From: Eledone cirrhosa
Taxonomy: Eukaryota
Reading direction: 5' to 3'
DNA: 64,000 nt
Assembly: GCA_964016885.1 (NCBI GenBank)
Contig: OZ024745.1
Span: forward strand, 131,130,001 to 131,194,000
This document shows, in pieces, positions 579 to 43,924 of this stretch. Every line of letters starts with the position of its first letter. The stretch's first letter is position 1. A program made the position numbers and the translations under genes. The notes beneath the pieces are model-generated. The model ran no database searches, was not told the origin of the DNA, and was given only the letters and a program-made list of their open reading frames with translations.

Positions 579-623
579 ATTTTAACCATGCTGATTTTTT
601 TTTCCTTTTGTTTTCATTACTAG

Positions 624-721
624 ACGCTCATTATATATTCGAGCTAAGACAATTCTTCAAAAGTTGCGGAAAGCTGGTGTTGGGGAACGGCCTCTTATCT
701 GGATTGGACATTCAATGGGCG
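624..721 (+). CDS. SERAC1: SERAC1 internal coding exon with the lipase nucleophile motif
   Basis: tag|A CGC...GGC G|gtaag; RSLYIRAKTILQKLRKAGVGERPLIWIGHSMG matches recalled SERAC1 [20 protein letters not shown]. Confidence 0.93.
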
Positions 722-1542
722 GTAAGTTGAAATACTCACTTTTCTATCATCTTTTTTTTTTTTTTTCTCATTTTGAATTATTATTTTTTCCTGATAAAAG
801 GCAATCATCATCATCATTATAATCACCATCCCATTACTGTCAAATATTTTCAATGGCGGTGCCCCAGCATGGCCTCAGCCTGTCAGCTGCAATACATAAT
901 AGAGTAAGTAATACATGACCATAAAAGTACGTTACAAGAAATCCAAATGACTAATTCTGAATTTTAAAATAAAATCAACAAAGACAACCTACAAAAATTA
1001 CTGATTTTCCAACTCCCCACTTATTTCACCCTTGTTAGGGACCTTGTTAAAGTGTTAACTGCCCCTTTGCTTCCAGCTTCTTTATACTTGTCCAAAAAAG
1101 TACATTAGTAGAAATCCCATGTTATAAAATAAATAAGATGGGATGGGGGTTTAAATATGTAAACTAAATGACTAATTCTGGATTTTAAAAAATCAATGGT
1201 GACAACCTAGAAAAATTACCGATTTTCCAACTCCCTGCTTATTCCACCCTCCACCTCACCCCTCTCAAATATGAAGTAGGCAGTACAGAGTTATGTACCT
1301 TGTATTTTGTCACAAACTCAGTAAAGTCTGAGAATTATGAACATTGAGCTCTCTCTTCTGCACACACACACACACAACTTAACTCTAGCGCAATCAGCCA
1401 ATAAGGGAGTCTCTATGTGGTCGCTCAACCTGCTGGAAATAGCAACCATATTTCCCTCAAATCACATCCTACCTTAAAAGGGTGAGGGTATGTTGGATAA
1501 TGTGGTTCTAGATGCATACACTATGCTTAAAAAATACATGGG

Positions 1543-2295: not shown

Positions 2296-2933
2296 AATGT
2301 GGTTGGTATTACGAAAGGCATCCAGCTGTAGAAACCAAGGCAGAACCAGTTCTGTATGAGCAAGGCATGGTCACCTGACCTGGCTTGTCTCACATTAGAG
2401 ACAACTCGTCAACCCATGCTTGTGTGGGAAAATGAATGTTAAACGATGATGGTGGTGGTGATGATGGTTACAAGTCAACTGGAACACTTTTTGTCATCAG
2501 TCTGCTTAATCAGGGCTGACATACTTTACAGTGCTTAATCAGGGCTGACCACTTTACAGAGTAGGCTCGGTGCTGTTTTGTCGTGACACCTCCACGACCA
2601 CTTTGCAGTGGGAGGGGTGGGGGCATATTGCCTATATGCTTCGGCTTGTTTCCGTGGGAAGTCGTATATATATATATACTGATGTATTTTCATGGTAACA
2701 CCTTTATCTCATGTAATATCAAATCTATGAGATTTTGATATTATTTATTTTGAGAACAATACCTTAACATCAGTATGAGTGGCCAGTTACAATCGGTTTG
2801 AACAGAAAATGGGGAGAGAATTCTGACTGGATATGTTGGTTTAAATGCTAAAGGGTTAAAGCAAATAAAGTTTGTTTCTTTTAATTTAAATTTGTTTGTT
2901 TATTTATTTATTTATTTATTTATTTATTGACAG

Positions 2934-3110
2934 GTCTTTTAATAAAACAGATGTTGTTATTAGATGAAATTACGGATCGAAAAATCATCAAAAGTACCAA
3001 AGGAATTTTATTTTACAGCGTCCCACATCGTGGCTCCACCTTGGCAACATTATGGAGACAAGCCTGGTTTTTGTTGTACCCTTCCATTGAGGTTAAAGAA
3101 CTTGATCCAG
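2934..3110 (+). CDS. SERAC1: SERAC1 coding exon
   Basis: cag|GT CTT...CCA G|gtggg; GLLIKQMLL...TKGILFYSVPHRGS...LLYPSIEVKELDP; phase continuous with the 624-721 exon. Confidence 0.93.
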
Positions 3111-3149
3111 GTGGGTAGAACAAATAACATTTCTATCATGAACACAAGC

Positions 3150-4336: not shown

Positions 4337-4976
4337 GTATGGAATCATTTTTTACTAATTTCTTTTTTTATATGTATTCTCAGGTCCCAAATAATTGGGA
4401 TGGGGGAATAAGTAAGGATGTTGGACATTTGCTTAAATTCCTATAAGCAGGAAGGGGGGAGGGGGGTCGGTAATTGTATAGTGTACATTTGTAAATTTCT
4501 TGTAATGTTTGTTTTTTTCTTACATATATGTTTTTTTAATGTAAAATAAAATTATTATTAGATTCTCCAGTTGCTGTATTAATATGAATCACTTACAATA
4601 ACATTTCACCAGAGATCATCATCAGGAAGGGGGGGGGGGAGTCTGAAAAATTAATAAATTTGGGAGAACGATTATTCAAGACCTGAGAGCATATAGGGGA
4701 GTTTTGTGAAGTAAAGCCGTTACCATGAAAATACAATAGTAAATATAGAGTAATGTAAATGCTAAAAGGTTCAAAGGCTTAATTTATTATTGAATTTAGA
4801 TTTTATTGTAAAAATATTTCACCAATTTGTTATCATTCAACAAATCAAAAAATATTCCATGCTAGCGTGGAAGATGGATGTTAAATGAAAATGATGATTC
4901 GAGTGCTTGTTTTTTGTTTGTTTTTTTTTATTTTTATTATATATTTTCCCCATGCTTTTCACTTTATTTAATGTAG

Positions 4977-5164
4977 ATCCCGGTTTTGGAATGTTTTATG
5001 GAATTGAGGCTAATCATGTGACCATCTGCAAGCCAATCAACCCTCAGTCTCTGCTATATACTGTAACATTAAAATGTGTGCAACAATGGGCCAATCAGAA
5101 ATTGGTAGATAGTGTAATGGAAGCAGGACTTTCAATTGAAGACCAACTGATTGGCATATTCTAA
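4977..5164 (+). CDS. SERAC1: SERAC1 terminal coding exon
   Basis: tag|AT CCC; DPGFG...ANHVTICKP...LLY matches recalled DLGIG...NHLNICKP; stop TAA ends at 5164. Confidence 0.9.
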
Positions 5165-34313: not shown

Positions 34314-34889
34314 GTAATACTGTGCTTTTGTTTGTATAGAAACAGAAATAGAGACAATAGTCTTTTCTAAAAGATATCAGAATAACTACTTAATATTAAT
34401 GGTGTTTTTGTTCAGATTTCATTGTTATAGGCTGGATGAAAAAAGATGGGGAATTATTCAGTTTTATTGTTGTTGTTGTTACTAGTCTGGGAGATAATGG
34501 ATAGTAGAAGTGAAGAGACATGGAAAAATGGATGAAGTTGGATTAGGTTGGAGTAGAAGAGAGTTAATGAGTTTAAAGAGCAGAACATGTAGCTGCATGG
34601 TGGTGTGTGGGGGAGACAGGAGCCACAGTTTTACTGAGGATGGATCAACATTTCTAGAGTGAAGACCTGTTTATTATGCAGACAGCCCTTTTTGGAGGTT
34701 ACAGTATTGAACAACGAGATCCCAACAGCAATACTAAATGTTCACAACTCCATTATCCTAAAGCAGGGGTTCCCAACCTTTTGTGCACCATGGCCCACCT
34801 CAACATCTCAAACATTGTTATTCCCCCCTCCCTTTTGATATGGAAACAGTGATGATCAACTGCAAAGTGTAAACAAATTGGTCTATAGG

Positions 34890-35535
34890 TGGTGTTAGAT
34901 ACACAATGTCATATAGAGAAGGTCAGACAGGAGTTTCTGACAGTGATATGTACCATATAGGTGGTGCCAGATATACAATAACATGTGGAGGAGGTGAGAC
35001 AAGAGTTTCTGACAGTAATGTGTACCATATAGGTGGTGCCAGATATACAATAACATGTGGAAGAGGTGAGACAGGAGTTTCTGACAGTAATGTGTACCAT
35101 ATAGGTGGTGCCAGATACACAATAACATGTGGAGGAGGTGAGACAGGAGTTTCTGACAGTAATGTGTACCATATAGGCGGTGCCAGATACACAATAACAT
35201 ATGGAGGAGGTGAGACAGGAGTTTCTGACAGTAATGTGTACCATATAGGTGGTGCCAGATACACAATAACATGTGGAAGAGGTGAGACAAGAGTTTCTGA
35301 CAGTAATGTGTACCATATAGGTGGTGCCAGATATACAATAACATGTGGAAGAGGTGAGACAGGAGTTTCTGACAGTAATGTGTACCATATAGGCAGTGCC
35401 AGATACACAATAACATGTGGTGGAGGTGAGACAGGAGTTTCTGACAGTAATGTGTACCATATAGGCGGTGCCAGATACACAATAACATATGGAGGAGGAG
35501 GATGAGACAGGAATTTCCGACAGTAATGTGTACCA
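34890..35535. repeat. 72-bp minisatellite (~8.5 copies)
   Basis: Unit gagacaggagtttctgacagtaatgtgtaccatataggtggtgccagatacacaataacatgtggaggaggt. Confidence 0.93.
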
Positions 35536-36063
35536 AAGTTGCCTTGGTGTAAAAGTAATAAAACTTCAAGACTTCTCATTAACGCCATAGCTCCAATTGC
35601 CTTGTGTCCTCAAGCATTAGCCAAAAGAGTAGCTAACACCATAGAATAGGAAATCCCAAGTAATTAAGTGATTAATAGTAAAGCCAGGAATATGTAACAC
35701 TTAAGTAAATACAATAGTTGTTTAAATCATGTAACACTGCTCACAGTGTAGTCTACATATTCTGGTAGTAAGATATACATTGATACTTTTAGAAGCAAAC
35801 AACTACAATTTAGAAGGATTGGAGGGAATATAAGCAGATTGAGTGCTATATGGCAGTGGAACTGTGTCAATGATAATGTTGATTTATAACATAGGCACAA
35901 GGACAAACATTTTTTCAAGGACGTTATGGTTGATTATATTAACCCTAACAATGTGACTAGTACTATTTTATGAACCCCAAAAAGATGAAATGAAAATTCG
36001 ATCCTGATGGGTTTGAACTTAGAATGTAAATGGACATAACTAAGAACGTTTTTGTAAAAGTGT

Positions 36064-36277
36064 TTAACCCTTAAGCATTTAAACCGGTCGTATCTGACTA
36101 GAATTCTCTCATCTCTTTCTGTTCAAACCGGCTGTAACTGACCACTCATACTAACGTTAACATATTTTTCTCAATAAATAATATCAAAATCGCATAGATT
36201 CGATATTATGTGAGGTAAAGCCTTTAATGCAAAAATAAAATAGTAAATACAGAGTCATGTAAATGCTAAAGGGTTAC
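36064..36277 (-). mobile_element. piggyBac-like MITE family A
   Basis: Reverse complement of 7120-7332; other copies at 48345-48570, ~2670-2858 and ~7770-7890. Confidence 0.8.
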
Positions 36278-38309
36278 ATGGTCTGGAAAGGAGCAAAGAC
36301 ATTATAGAGTTGAAGAAGAGTGAGTATGTTTACACATCATTAGTGAGTTAGTGGTTGTAGTATGTTGTTGGAGGAAGATTTAGACCCAAATGTTTAGGTG
36401 TTTGACAGCAGACTCCCAGATTTATGAATATTGTTCTAATGTGGGGCACACTGGTGCTTAGCAGAAATTCAACAACTGCTCACTGTTGATGTATTTTTTC
36501 ATCTTAAAGGGAAAAACCTAGTTTTTATTTATAGTGTCAGTGAGAATGAAGGTTTGTCATTTAGGTGGGAAGCTTGTTTCTTCTGAAAGTAATACATGAT
36601 GTGAAAAATATGGTGAATGCACTGTTTCCAATTATTTGGTTAATTCTTATATATTGTCCTTTAAGTATAGAATTTTATCTATAAATATCCATGAACGAAC
36701 CTGGTTCGTTTGGTTACCAGCCCAGGCTCTGCTGCCCACCAGGCCAAAGAGGACAAACTGTCTAAATATCAGTAATCACTCTCTGATAAGTTTGTGGTAG
36801 AGCCTGTAGCAGTAGAGACCTCTGGTGTTCTTGGGCCTTGGGCCACAATCACTGCTATTGGAGTGGAGTTGGGTGTCTGCAGGTGCAAGCCCTATGGAGT
36901 GACTGTTCCAGGACATCTCCCACACCATCCTCCAGGGCAATGTATTCTTCATCCTGTTGGCCAACACACAGAGTCAGAAGGTAACTTAGATACAGAGGAA
37001 AAGATTTGAATTTCTTCACATACATCAACCTAACTGAGTATACTTGCAAACCAAACCAAGGTATATCATCATCATCAACATCATTTTACGTCCACTTTTC
37101 CCCATTGCAAGGGTGGGATGGGAACTGATTCTGACTTGATTTCTACAGCTGGATGCCCTTCCTAACACCAACCTCATTTACAGTGAGTGCTGGGTGCTTT
37201 TTAGCCGTGGCACCTCCACGACCACTTTTCAGTGGAATGATAGAGACCCCAGTCCCTATCATCTCATTTCTACAGCTGAATAAACTGGAGCAATGTGAAA
37301 TAAAGTGTCTTACTCAAGGAAACAACACATCACCCAGTCTGAGAATTGAACTCACAACCTTTCAATTGAAAGGCCAATGCTCTAACCACTAAGCCATGTG
37401 CCTCCATATATATATATATAAAATACAGAAGACCCAACTTTCCATGGGTACAAACCGAAGCTGAAGCATATAGACAGTATGCCGCCCTCCCACTGTAAAG
37501 TGGTCGTGTAGATGTCACAACAAAAAAACACCCAGCCCACACTGTAAAGTGGTCGTGTAGGTGTCACGACAAAAAGCACCCAGTACTCACTGTAAATGAG
37601 GTTGGTGTTAGGAAGAGCATCCAGCTGTAGAAATCAAGCCAAAATCAGTTCTGTATGAGCAAGACATGGTCACCTGACCTGGCATTGCCCACAACAAGAC
37701 AACCCGTCTAACCCATGCTAGTGTGGAAGAATAGACGTAAGACGGTGATGATGATGAAAATAGGTATTTTCACTCCATGAACCATAGTTTGCAGTTAGTA
37801 ATTTCACAAGAGGCTAACAAATAGAGAGAGTATAGCCAGACTAAATACATAACAACAGTCATTTCTAACTAAAGCAGGTACTAGTGGACCAGATTAGTGG
37901 AATTACTTGTAACATATGAAGGCATTAGATTTATTGTTAATGCTTTGAAATTTACTGTTATTTATTTTTATAGCTTTATATGACCCACTTGCCTGGTTAA
38001 TTTTATAGAGTAGGAGGCAAAGCAGTAGATATCCTATATAGAGTAGGAGGCAAAGCAGTAGATATCCTATATAGAGTAGGAGGCAAAGCAGTAGATATCC
38101 TATATAAAGAGGCAGATGATTACAAAAAAGGAGTGGGAATCCTAGCTCTACACCAGATACGTTTGCCCTCCTCTAGGCTCTATAGTCAAAACCAGGGTAT
38201 ATTCTATTTTTATATTAGTAATACACTAAGAACAATTCACTTGATTCTACAGCTCTCTTATGAAACTGGTCTGGTGCCTGAAGTAATCACTACAGGAGAG
38301 ATAATCATT

Positions 38310-38356
<47 letters not shown>

Positions 38357-38471
38357 TTCACTTTATTTCACGTTGCTCCTTCTACCTGGAGTTTATTAGC
38401 AATTGGAAAGACCAATGGAAACATTGTTTCCTCGGTCCAATTTTACGAAAGTCGATCGTTCCAAAAATAAA

Positions 38472-38534
<63 letters not shown>

Positions 38535-38655
38535 GGAGGTGAGTTTTATTGTAGTACAATAAAGCAATGCAGATATCGGATAAGAAGCACTCTACAGTTT
38601 GTAGGACTGGAGTATACATAATATAAGATCAAAAGATGGTTAAAGGAGTTCCATG

Positions 38656-38726
38656 TATTTTATTATGCGCATTTCAAAAACAAACATCATCATGCAATAG
38701 TATTTGTGTTTTCATCAGATAAAACA
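38656..38726 (-). ncRNA. Type I hammerhead ribozyme motif (mirror copy in the palindrome)
   Basis: Reverse complement of 38847-38917. Confidence 0.72.
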
Positions 38727-38846
38727 GGAAAACATGATATGAAGGCTAAAAAACACTTGTGGATAGTGCAGTTTTAAATCAACATATATGTTGATTTAAA
38801 ACTGCACTATCCACAAGTGTTTTTTAGCCTTCATATCATGTTCTCC

Positions 38847-38917
38847 TGTTTTATCTGATGAAAACACAAATACTATTGCATGATGATGTTTGTTTTTGAA
38901 ATGCGCATAATAAAATA
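38847..38917 (+). ncRNA. Type I hammerhead ribozyme motif, minimal Penelope-type stem III
   Basis: Stem I UGUUUUAU/AUAAAAUA, CUGAUGA (38855-38861), stem II AAACACAAAUA/UGUUUGUUUUU, GAAA, palindromic UGCGCA, AUA cleavage triplet (cut after 38909). Confidence 0.75.
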
Positions 38918-39299
38918 CATGGAACTCCTTTAACCATCTTTTGATCTTATATTATATATATATATATATAACGGAGGAAGTGTGGTAAGGAACCAGATGG
39001 ACCATAATGCACCAGAGTACTCAATACTTAGGGTAGTAGAGTGGGTAATAGGAAAATGTTTAACCCCGACGGCTTGAGCTCTGCCGTTGGAGTTAAACAT
39101 ATATATATATGTATATTCAATACATAAACAGAGAAAGCCTTAAGCGATACTCTCACCAACTCCATCTCACTCAACAAACATTAGGATATACCTAAGTATT
39201 ATCCCAATTTAGTGTTTGGGGTGCTAACTAATCAGTATTTCGTGGATAATTGGTTGTATTATTTTATATGAGACATTATTAAATAAATATCTCTTTCCT

Positions 39300-39423
39300 T
39301 CCAGACGGCCATTTCGTTATAAGATTTCTACAATTTGGGATAAATAATTTCCAGGTTATGTAGAAACTTGTATATAATCCATAGTTTTATACACAAGCGG
39401 GCTCTTATAAACTCATCAGTGGA
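39300..39423 (-). ncRNA. Type I hammerhead ribozyme motif with branched stem II
   Basis: UCCA-CUGAUGA-GUUUAUAAGA...UCUUAUAAC-GAAA-UGGCCG-UC-UGGA; GUC triplet. Confidence 0.75.
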
Positions 39424-39855
39424 TGCCCAAATAATATCGATATAAGAATTATATCGACATTAATAGATTAGTGATGGTCTCCCTCAGCGCTAAGAAGAGA
39501 CTGGTAGATTAGAAAATCCAGCAGTCCTCTCAAAGATAAAATACACGCTGTCCCCAAAAGGGTAACGGGAGGTCATCTTAAAATAAAACAATATACACGC
39601 TGGTCATTTAAACCTGTTAGGTATTAACCACGTGTATAAGAACTCAATTGGATATTAAGAGAAAAACCATATGTATACACAACCAAAGCACACACAGAGA
39701 TATTAAAACATAATAAATACATGCATGGATCCCCCATATACACACACAGCCATTCTCTAAGGCTAAATCAGACATGGGATACAAGGAAGATCAATCAGTA
39801 TTTCATATAAAAAATAATAATAATAAAGAGTCATACCTTATATCTGGAAATCATA

Positions 39856-39906
<51 letters not shown>

Positions 39907-39939
39907 ATATATGTATATATATATATATATATATACATA

Positions 39940-39988
<49 letters not shown>

Positions 39989-40249
39989 GTCCAAACCCAT
40001 GCAAGCGTGGAACACGGACGTTAAACGTTGATGATGATGATGATATATATAAAGAAAGATATCTATCTATCTGTCTATATATCTGTCTGTCTATATATCT
40101 TCCTTCCTCACTGTATATCTATCTTTCTGTTTCTGTCACATGGAATCTTTCTCTATAATAAATTCAAAATGAATAAATAAACAAATAAAAGCTAGAATTG
40201 TAATATTATTTATTTTATTAATTTATTCATTCCTTTATTTATTTTCAAG

Positions 40250-40322: not shown

Positions 40323-40559
40323 GTAAGTAAAAAGAGAAAAAAAACCAACAAGCAAATAAAAAATAAGTTACTTACATCTATTCCTTCTTATATTAGTAGA
40401 AGATATAATCTGAAGTTTTTATAACAACAATGAAGAATCTATTCCATAAAACTAGAGATCCCTTAATAAACAGAAATTTGCTTTGCCTTAGGATACTTTA
40501 AGCAAAAGAGACAATGATAAAAGTATTTTTTTAAAGATTTATTAAAATATTTTAAAAAA

Positions 40560-42065
40560 GCGCTTATCCCACACCGTAAAGTGGTCATGTTGGTGTCACA
40601 ATAAAAAGCACTCAGCCCACAGTGTAAAGTGGTCATGTTGGTGTCACAATAAAAAGCACTCAGCCCACAGTGTAAAGTGGTCATGTTGGTGTCACAATAA
40701 AAAGCACCCAGCCCACACCATAAAGTGGTCATGTTGGTGTCACAATAAAAAGCACTCAGCCCACAGTGTAAAGTGGTCATGTTGGTGTCACAACAAAAAG
40801 CACTCAGCCCACAGTGTAAAGTGGTCATGTTGGTGTCGCAACAAAAAGCACTCAGCCCACACCGTAAAGTGGTCATGTTGGTGTCACAACAAAAAGCACT
40901 CAGCCCACAGTGTAAAGTGGTCATGTAGGTGTCATGACAAAAAGCACCCAGTACACACTGTAAAGTGGTCATGTAGGCGCCATGACAAAAAGCACCCAGC
41001 CCACAGTGTAAAGTGGTCATGTTGGTGTCACAATAAAAAGCACTCAGCCCACAGTGTAAAGTGGTCATGTAGGCGCCATGACAAAAAGCACTCAGCCCAC
41101 AGTGTAAAGTGGTCATGTAGGTGTCGCAATAAAAAGCACTCAGCCCACAGTGTAAAGTGGTCATGTAGGTGTCACAATAAAAAGCACTCAGCCCACAGTG
41201 TAAAGTGGTCATGTTGGTGTCGCAATAAAAAGCACTCAGCCCACACTGTAAAGTGGTCATGTAGGTGTCACAATAAAAAGCACTCAGCCCACAGTGTAAA
41301 GTGGTCATGTAGGTGTCACAATAAAAAGCACTCAGCCCACACTGTAAAGTGGTCATGTAGGTGTCACAATAAAAAGCACTCAGCCCACAGTGTAAAGTGG
41401 TCATGTAGGTGTCACAATAAAAAGCACTCAGCCCACACTGTAAAGTGGTCATGTAGGTGTCACAATAAAAAGCACTCAGCCCACAGTGTAAAGTGGTCAT
41501 GTAGGTGTCACAATAAAAAGCACTCAGCCCACAGTGTAAAGTGGTCATGTAGGTGTCACAATAAAAAGCACTCAGCCCACAGTGTAAAGTGGTCATGTTG
41601 GTGTCGCAATAAAAAGCACTCAGCCCACACCGTAAAGTGGTCATGTAGGTGTCGCAATAAAAAGCACTCAGCCCACAGTGTAAAGTGGTCATGTTAGTGT
41701 CACAATAAAAAGCACTCAGCCCACAGTGTAAAGTGGTCATGTAGGTGTCACAATAAAAAGCACTCAGCCCACAGTGTAAAGTGGTCATGTTGGTGTCGCA
41801 ATAAAAAGCACTCAGCCCACAGTGTAAAGTGGTCATGTAGGTGTCACAATAAAAAGCACTCAGCCCACAGTGTAAAGTGGTCATGTTGGTGTCGCAATAA
41901 AAAGCACTCAGCCCACAGTGTAAAGTGGTCATGTTGGTGTCGCAATAAAAAGCACTCAGCCCACACCGTAAAGTGGTCATGTAGGTGTCATGACAAAAAG
42001 CACTCAGCCCACACCGTAAAGTGGTCATGTTGGTGTCATGACAAAAAGCCACCAGCACACACTGT
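40560..42065 (+). repeat. 48-bp minisatellite (~31 copies) expanded from the same RTE/SINE 3' module
   Basis: Unit cacagtgtaaagtggtcatgtaggtgtcacaataaaaagcactcagcc; followed by the retroposon tail and (GAT)n to ~42196. Confidence 0.93.
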
Positions 42066-43287: not shown

Positions 43288-43398
43288 GTGAGAAATGTTG
43301 ATAATATATATGAAATGTTGCTCTGCTGCTGCTGTTCTTCTTCTTCTTCTTCTTCTTTTTCTTTTTTGTTTTTCTTCTTCTTCTTCTTCTTCTTCTTC

Positions 43399-43474
43399 TT
43401 CTTCTTCTTGGTGAACCAACAAACCTAAATATATATATATATATTTAGGTTTGTTGGTTCACCAAGAAGAAGAA
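43399..43474. repeat. 76-bp perfect palindrome centred on (TA)n
   Basis: ttcttcttcttggtgaaccaacaaacctaaa(ta)n tttaggtttgttggttcaccaagaagaagaa. Confidence 0.9.
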
Positions 43475-43924
43475 TATATATATATTAAAATATATATATA
43501 TAAAAGTTTCAGAAGATCCCGTTAAGGGTGAAAGCAGCGATTCTTTACTTAAACTTTAATCTGTTATTTTAATAAATATTTGCTCTAGGGTTCTTATATT
43601 TTTTATATATATTTATCCTTATCGAGCCCTCTTTGGAATTTAGTCTTCAAATTTATTATTATTACTATATATATATATATAAATGAAAATATAGAAATTA
43701 ATGTGAGCAAGAAGCCAACAGTATTTCATAATAAGTGACTATAACGTCAAAATGGAAAATATTTAACGTAAGATATGGGAAAATAATTCAAACTCAATTA
43801 AAAAAAAATCAAGACAGAGATTTTATCCACAGATTTTGTGAAATCCAGGGAAAAAAACCAATAGAGTCTTAACTCAGAATAAAAAGTTTAAATACTCATC
43901 CTTCAATTTGGAAAAACTACAAAT

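What the first reader, a model, noticed from the sequence alone, without database searches (positions are those of the whole stretch)
38618..38955. Hammerhead ribozyme locked inside a 338-bp spacer-less palindrome in an ARMC2 intron
Seen: 169-bp arms with one mismatch and no spacer. Each arm carries a full type I hammerhead (8-bp stem I, CUGAUGA, stem II, GAAA, palindromic UGCGCA, AUA site), so either strand encodes one. Known: minimal hammerheads with a palindromic stem III loop are typical of Penelope-like element pseudo-LTRs and act as dimers. Inference: in the + strand ARMC2 pre-mRNA the antisense arm is transcribed first and would trap the ribozyme in a long duplex. That duplex is also an ideal ADAR or small-RNA substrate, so it could act as a built-in off switch, possibly tuned by editing.
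Basis: partly seen in the sequence, partly recalled or inferred. Interest (0 to 1): 0.8.

Follow-up and report, generated by a model that had tools for sequence, protein, structure and literature searches.

The report
Head-to-head Penelope retrotransposon insertion
The palindrome is two front ends of a very common Penelope-like jumping gene joined head to head in an intron of the ARMC2 gene, one of about 1,700 similar joins in this genome, so it is most likely an ordinary by-product of how the element inserts and not a switch built for this gene.

Summary
The palindrome is real (169-bp arms, one mismatch) and each arm holds a hammerhead motif, in an ARMC2 intron of an octopus-like genome. It is only part of a 424-bp insertion into (TA)n: one arm carries a further 86-bp "tail". 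Both arms are the pseudo-LTR of a young Hydra-clade Penelope-like retrotransposon with many open 821-codon frames. The genome holds 9,984 exact copies of the tail end and 1,730 head-to-head centres like this one. Inverted pseudo-LTRs with a one-sided tail are the published insertion form of these elements. Useful side results: arms start at one fixed base, often behind an extra G (likely the capped RNA start); 60 of 63 partner arms lack the tail; partners often hold sequence the tailed arm lacks, which favours two separate primings over fold-back copying; only 17 of 6,283 copies begin at the ribozyme cut. Cleavage, editing and expression were not tested.

The parts
38472..38531 (.). (TA)n target, left part
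   Evidence: sequence
38532..38617 (-). 86-bp tail of the pseudo-LTR (positions q170-q255 of the element), present on this arm only
   Evidence: matches full-length copy L101; 9,984 exact genome matches to its last 34 nt
38618..38786 (-). left arm: pseudo-LTR q1-q169 of the tailed copy
   Evidence: tailed copy differs from L101 at 3 of 256 positions
38648..38733 (-). type I hammerhead motif, mirror copy (predicted cut after 38664 on the - strand)
   Evidence: mirror of the + copy
38786..38787 (.). head-to-head centre; both copies begin at the family's fixed start, overlapping by AT; inferred transcription start
38787..38955 (+). right arm: untailed pseudo-LTR q1-q169, ending at a TA-like stretch
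38840..38925 (+). type I hammerhead motif: stem I 38847-38854/38910-38917, core 38855-38861 and 38898-38901, long stem II 38862-38897, 8-nt self-complementary stem III 38901-38908, predicted cut 38909/38910
38956..38970 (.). (TA)n target, right part
38971..39097 (.). neighbour, not part of the insertion: copy of a second high-copy (TA)n-flanked family of the same two-arm design
34314..40249 (+). host intron of ARMC2 (approximate ends, GT/AG read from sequence)

Best explanation
This is one insertion of a Hydra-clade Penelope-like retrotransposon, made of a tailed and an untailed pseudo-LTR joined head to head in a (TA)n run, likely formed when both cut DNA ends primed reverse transcription on the element's RNA and both copies ran to the RNA's start. 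Steps. Shown: parentage, architecture, copy numbers, fixed start, one-sided tail. Inferred: the GIY-YIG enzyme cuts both strands of (TA)n; one 3' end primes at q255-259, the other at q165-169 (both are TA-like stretches that can pair with the target); on RNA that begins in the pseudo-LTR both cDNAs end at the capped start and are joined, giving a near-perfect palindrome. The hammerhead is there because it sits inside the pseudo-LTR; it is under selection in the active lineage and would need a dimer or protein help to cut. In ARMC2 pre-mRNA it is predicted to be buried in a 169-bp duplex, a passive consequence with probably no selected role.
For: Full-length copies read pseudo-LTR, 821-codon stop-to-stop frame, about 1.1 kb 3'UTR, pseudo-LTR (10 of 20 fetched, chosen for long frames, have 821 codons). 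The protein has RT motifs and the Hydra marks. 9,984 tail ends, 6,283 exact copies of q124-152, 1,730 centres with 0-8 nt gap. Of the first 90 listed tail matches, 85 are ends and nearly all abut (TA)n; 19 of 85 have both arms at the fixed start, 11 of 85 have a shortened tailed arm beside a partner that reaches the start, and 60 of 63 partners lack the tail. G precedes the start in 12 of 23 asymmetric junctions although the element has C there (19.5% expected, p 0.0005); genome-wide 619 with G against 429 with A. An extra G marks capped L1 templates (PMC11702581). In vitro a Poseidon protein cuts and extends both strands, starts at two internal sites that bound the tail, and uses uncut RNA (PMC11167929). 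Arms of a pair share subfamily letters (42 of 936 differ against 36% between pairs). All 7 common variants in paired ribozyme positions keep pairing and none hits an invariant core base (216 arms).
Against: The start of transcription was not measured; 6 of the 12 G's are also explained by overlap with the partner arm, and the genome-wide G excess is modest. The tail is 86 nt against the published 30-40. The anole enzyme starts at sites not homologous to the target, here both ends look TA-like. No read or contig bridges this exact locus. Copies starting at the ribozyme cut are about twice as many as at three control sites (17 against 9, 6, 9), so some cleavage in vivo is not excluded. Clade assignment is by motifs and by-eye likeness, no tree.
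Confidence: 0.85

Rival explanations
1. One reading: an evolved off switch in ARMC2 pre-mRNA, in which the mirror arm silences the ribozyme and ADAR editing tunes its release.
For: The duplex is predicted to form as the right arm is made. The one mismatch is A.C in the + strand hairpin, a pair that ADAR favours (recalled). Cephalopods edit heavily (recalled; listings only).
Against: 1,730 like centres; very young copy; no extra arm conservation in spacer-less pairs (56 of 4,896 against 35 of 3,318); editing that A would tighten the duplex; the same intron holds other inverted repeats; the motif lacks a stable stem III as a monomer (probability 0.0).
Confidence: 0.04
2. The inverted arm arises by self-priming: one cDNA (or an antisense template) folds back at the small palindrome at the start and is copied back, as proposed for rotifer Penelope (PMC3846280).
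For: The natural start lies in a 6-nt palindrome, many centres overlap there, arms share haplotype and both window arms carry C87, seen in 0 of 109 tail-anchored copies.
Against: In 11 of 85 insertions the untailed arm holds sequence absent from the shortened tailed arm, and the untailed arm cannot template the tail, so one cDNA cannot give both. 6 of 42 short pairs differ at two or more subfamily sites.
Confidence: 0.1
3. The 424-bp palindrome is a non-autonomous element copied as a unit (MITE- or SINE-like).
For: High number and constant outer ends; the tailed arm holds both inferred priming sites.
Against: Centres differ from copy to copy, arm lengths form a continuum up to full frames, and palindromes occur in every subfamily haplotype seen: repeated formation, not one lineage. 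Short RNAs made from such copies could still act as templates; not tested.
Confidence: 0.07
4. Assembly fold-back artefact.
For: No record bridges the locus.
Against: Symmetry stops exactly at the family's untailed end, the tail is one-sided, the arms differ by a base, and junction forms at the fixed start appear in public contigs and in raw reads (table 5; X1 may be the assembly's own sample).
Confidence: 0.02

Closest known systems
Hydra clade of Penelope-like elements (Craig et al. 2021, PMC8557442), e.g. Hydra-1_Obim of Octopus bimaculoides and Penelope-13_HM
   Same: C-terminal GIY-YIG domain without CCHH, DKT, CxCX5C linker, CxxC and CxH, (TA)n target, hammerhead with 4+4 stem III; Penelope-13_HM is listed with an inverted 5'-truncated copy and a hammerhead on both strands
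   Different: RWT for RWK; 3.86-kb monomer against under 3 kb; a different family from Hydra-1_Obim (its ribozyme differs, and three of four short motifs were not found in the supplement); longer stem II, perfect 8-nt stem III palindrome
Inverted pseudo-LTR with one-sided tail of Penelope, Poseidon, Naiad and Adineta Pen elements (PMC8557442 Fig. 2 legend, PMC3846280, PMC2377424)
   Same: Head-to-head inverted copy at the 5' end, tail on one end, palindromes at the junction
   Different: Tail 86 nt; both arms often stop at one fixed base, often behind a G; about 1,700 near-perfect solo palindromes
Minimal Penelope hammerheads (Cervera and De la Pena 2014, PMC4209133)
   Same: Type I, palindromic stem III, dimer-type; pairs on opposite strands 100-700 bp apart were already noted in Schistosoma
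   Different: A-U at the base of stem II instead of the usual G-C (G-C in one diverged copy, L017); zero spacer
Twin priming of L1 5' inversions (PMC11702581, passages)
   Same: Both target ends prime on the RNA; joining by microhomology; extra G at full-length starts
   Different: Here both priming sites are fixed and the two cDNAs cover the same sequence, giving a palindrome

Membership tests
EN+ Penelope-like element | Single frame with RT followed by GIY-YIG domain, flanked by pseudo-LTRs | tested here: met
   RT motifs and LIY..YFG read by eye; Pfam and PDB gave no useful match; 14 unnamed homologues at 32-38%
EN+ Penelope-like element | Tandem and inverted insertions, 5' truncation, optional tail | tested here: met
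Hydra clade | DKT in place of DKG; CxCX5C linker; no CCHH; CxxC and CxH around the conserved E and N | tested here: met
   SDKT, CNCRIKNKC, one Cys between LIY and YFG, CNLC and CLH in the L101 frame
Hydra clade | N-terminal RWK motif | tested here: inconclusive
   RWT at the matching place
Hydra clade | (TA)n target and canonical hammerhead | tested here: met
   82 of 85 ends flagged TA-rich; motif layout as in File S2
Hydra clade | Length generally under 3 kb | tested here: not met
   monomer 3,864 bp; stated as a tendency, not a definition
Hydra clade | Placement in the RT tree | not tested
   reference sequences were seen in the supplement only and compared by eye
Type I hammerhead ribozyme | Core CUGANGA, GAAA, NUH with stems I-III, kept across copies | tested here: met
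   core intact in 199 of 216 arms; 7 of 7 common paired variants keep pairing; only one two-sided change and no excess over shuffles in 15 rows
Type I hammerhead ribozyme | Match to an Rfam hammerhead model | tested here: not met
Type I hammerhead ribozyme | Self-cleavage | not testable with these tools
   indirect only: 17 of 6,283 copies start at the cut
Non-LTR retrozyme | Tandem head-to-tail non-coding monomers with a hammerhead | tested here: not met
   arrangement is head to head and tied to a coding parent

The most novel reading that the evidence does not exclude
The 8-nt self-complementary stem III of the hammerhead serves mainly as an RNA pairing signal that brings two capped element RNAs into one dimeric enzyme complex, each templating one arm from its own fixed priming site. 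The palindromes would then be a genomic record of two-RNA, two-primer integration, which would explain why Penelope elements keep a ribozyme that hardly cuts; the roughly 1,700 perfect hairpins would also be a large, young source of double-stranded RNA in an editing-rich animal. Hints: 6 of 42 short pairs against 0 of 29 long pairs have arms of different subfamily type (p 0.037), fold kept under selection, cut site rarely used.
Probability: 0.15. Interest if true: 0.7.

Novelty: new member of a known kind. Interest (0 to 1): 0.3.

Why it matters
For ARMC2 it probably does not matter. As a family it is a good test bed for an open question, how Penelope-like elements make their inverted ends and what the hammerhead is for: about ten thousand young copies, many open frames, two sharp 3' ends and one sharp 5' end. 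The fixed start with a frequent extra G and the near-strict tailed/untailed pairing extend the 2024 in vitro result to genomic data. My searches listed no paper on this family or on twin priming in these elements; subscription papers and Repbase were not searched.

Tried and rejected
Rfam at E up to 10: only hairpin-driven miRNA and snoRNA matches below threshold. Pfam and PDB on the element's frame: nothing useful. Sequencing runs: no RNA holder listed; laying 8 runs gave no record across the locus and no splice joint, and other-letter tables mix thousands of copies, so they say nothing on editing. Pieces of the family at 93-100% occur in contigs of organisms C, D and E. Cut-site hotspot: 17 matches, 15 true junctions, against 9, 6 and 9 at q119, q128 and q134 (4 of the 15 control matches inspected are substitutions, the 9 at q134 were not inspected, control denominators not measured); p 0.015-0.04; overlap with ATA can explain it, so a weak hint only. 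My first reading, that the tailed arm is the one that continues into the frame, was dropped: either arm can. The BLAST classes misplaced several centres; one search replaces them. Loci were chosen by likeness to the window and were left out. Covariation on 15 rows was uninformative. No parent frame was found for the neighbouring family. One paper fetched for the extra G was irrelevant. No complex or structure prediction was run.

Full report
Observation. The palindrome is as described: arms 38618-38786 and 38787-38955, no spacer, one mismatch. Each arm carries the hammerhead core with an 8-bp stem I and a predicted cut after A38909, or its mirror; a motif scan of the window finds only these two. 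Rfam has no hammerhead match at E up to 10. An exon at 34111 matches an Octopus sinensis ARMC2-like protein at 91%, and ten exons of that protein map on the + strand, placing the palindrome in the intron between 34314 and 40249, about 1.3 kb before its end.

What it is. The arm is a high-copy repeat. In related loci one arm goes on for 86 more bases and then meets (TA)n, the other stops at q165-169 and meets (TA)n (q1 = 38787). The window is the same: the left arm runs to 38532. Wider fetches show an RT and GIY-YIG frame between the arms in some copies. A protein search scored 131 near-identical places, a lower bound. Of 20 places fetched for their long frames, 10 have an 821-codon stop-to-stop frame; the layout is pseudo-LTR, frame, 1.1-kb 3'UTR, pseudo-LTR, monomer 3,864 bp. 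The window's tailed arm differs from copy L101 at 3 of 256 bases. The protein shows SDKT, a CxCX5C linker, no CCHH, CxxC and CxH, and RWT for RWK; with the (TA)n target these are the marks of the Hydra clade (PMC8557442, section 11). By eye it resembles but is not Hydra-1_Obim. The ribozyme has the layout of the Hydra set in File S2, where Penelope-13_HM has an inverted copy and a motif on both strands.

How common. Exact genome counts: 9,984 tail ends, 6,283 copies of q124-152, 1,730 head-to-head centres with a gap of 0-8 nt. I examined the first 90 listed tail matches, all on contig C1: 5 are internal, 85 are ends; 19 of 85 have both arms at the fixed start, 11 of 85 have a shortened tailed arm beside a partner that reaches the start, and 60 of 63 partners that reach q160 have no tail. 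Centres vary in sequence, so the palindromes formed many times.

Mechanism. Published basis: inverted 5'-truncated partners and one-sided tails are typical (PMC8557442 passages; PMC3846280 passages; PMC8969392 passages); Penelope RNA starts inside the upstream pseudo-LTR at an internal promoter (PMC2377424, part 1 of 4); a Poseidon protein cuts and extends both strands, starts at two internal sites that bound the tail, uses uncut RNA, and its ribozyme needs protein (PMC11167929, parts 1-2 of 4). Here the fixed start is exact to the base. The element has C before it, yet G stands there in 7 of 13 tail-anchored and 5 of 10 other asymmetric junctions, against 19.5% G in the partner strand (p 0.006 and, pooled, 0.0005); six of these G's also fit the partner's sequence. 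Genome-wide, 619 starts follow G and 429 follow A. An extra G marks capped templates of L1 (PMC11702581 passages). I infer that q0 is the capped RNA start and that two primings, at q255-259 and q165-169, each ran to it. Fold-back of one cDNA cannot give the 11 cases where the partner is longer at its 5' end. Arms of a pair share subfamily letters (42 of 936 differ, 36% between pairs), so they come from one RNA or one source; 6 of 42 short pairs and 0 of 29 long pairs look mixed (p 0.037; one of the six aligns badly).

The ribozyme. Among 216 arms the core is intact in 199; of 17 variants at 4% or more, 7 lie in paired positions and all keep pairing, 9 are unpaired and one is the free core position. 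The fold is thus kept in the active lineage. As a monomer stem III does not form, while two copies of the 12-nt segment pair at -12.5 kcal/mol, as for the dimer-type motifs with low activity in vitro (PMC4209133, parts 1-2 of 4). Only 17 of 6,283 copies begin at the cut (15 true junctions), about twice the three controls (9, 6, 9): cut RNA is at most a minor template.

The switch idea. Folding supports the trap: 166 of 169 right-arm bases pair with the mirror, at every snapshot of a growing transcript nearly all bases made so far. That is true of any such insertion in any transcribed intron. Spacer-less pairs differ at 56 of 4,896 non-diagnostic sites and distant pairs at 35 of 3,318, so there is no sign that perfection is kept. 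The copy is young and the intron holds other inverted repeats. Editing, small RNAs and presence in other animals could not be tested.

Earlier notes of this scan on other genomes reach the same class verdict; none covers this genome or sequence. The retrozyme preprint was seen as abstract and outline only; its supplements are closed and were not seen.

Verdict. A real feature and an ordinary product of a known class: a new, very active Hydra-clade family. The interest lies in the family's junction statistics, not in this ARMC2 copy. Interest 0.3.

Noticed in passing
window 38971-39097: A second, unrelated high-copy (TA)n-flanked family abuts the insertion; in held loci it shows the same design (tailed and untailed arms of about 60 nt head to head, start at a TTTAGTC motif that resembles an initiator, recalled). 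Parent frame not found.
   Followed up: partly
L034, L041, L105, L112, L145, L157, L164: [quoted passage not shown]
   Followed up: no
window 40555-42000 and beyond; 37474-37596: Long 48-bp satellite in the next ARMC2 intron with related copies 3 kb upstream; 81-nt inverted arms at 37122-37202 and 37571-37651.
   Followed up: no
window 43396-43477: A second spacer-less palindrome, 41-bp arms around a (TA)n centre, beside a (CTT)n run.
   Followed up: no
window 38394-38460: Short very high-copy repeat, also abundant in organism B, with reads that loop back about 35 bases.
   Followed up: no
window 595-819, 2885-3115, 4898-5161: Exons of an alpha/beta-hydrolase gene upstream of ARMC2, PGAP1-like below the Pfam cut-off; looks like SERAC1 (recalled).
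   Followed up: no
L117:2816-5377: The antisense of the tailed arm is an open frame that is fused in frame to the element's coding frame in this copy.
   Followed up: no
window 38004-38109: Three tandem 33-bp copies just upstream.
   Followed up: no
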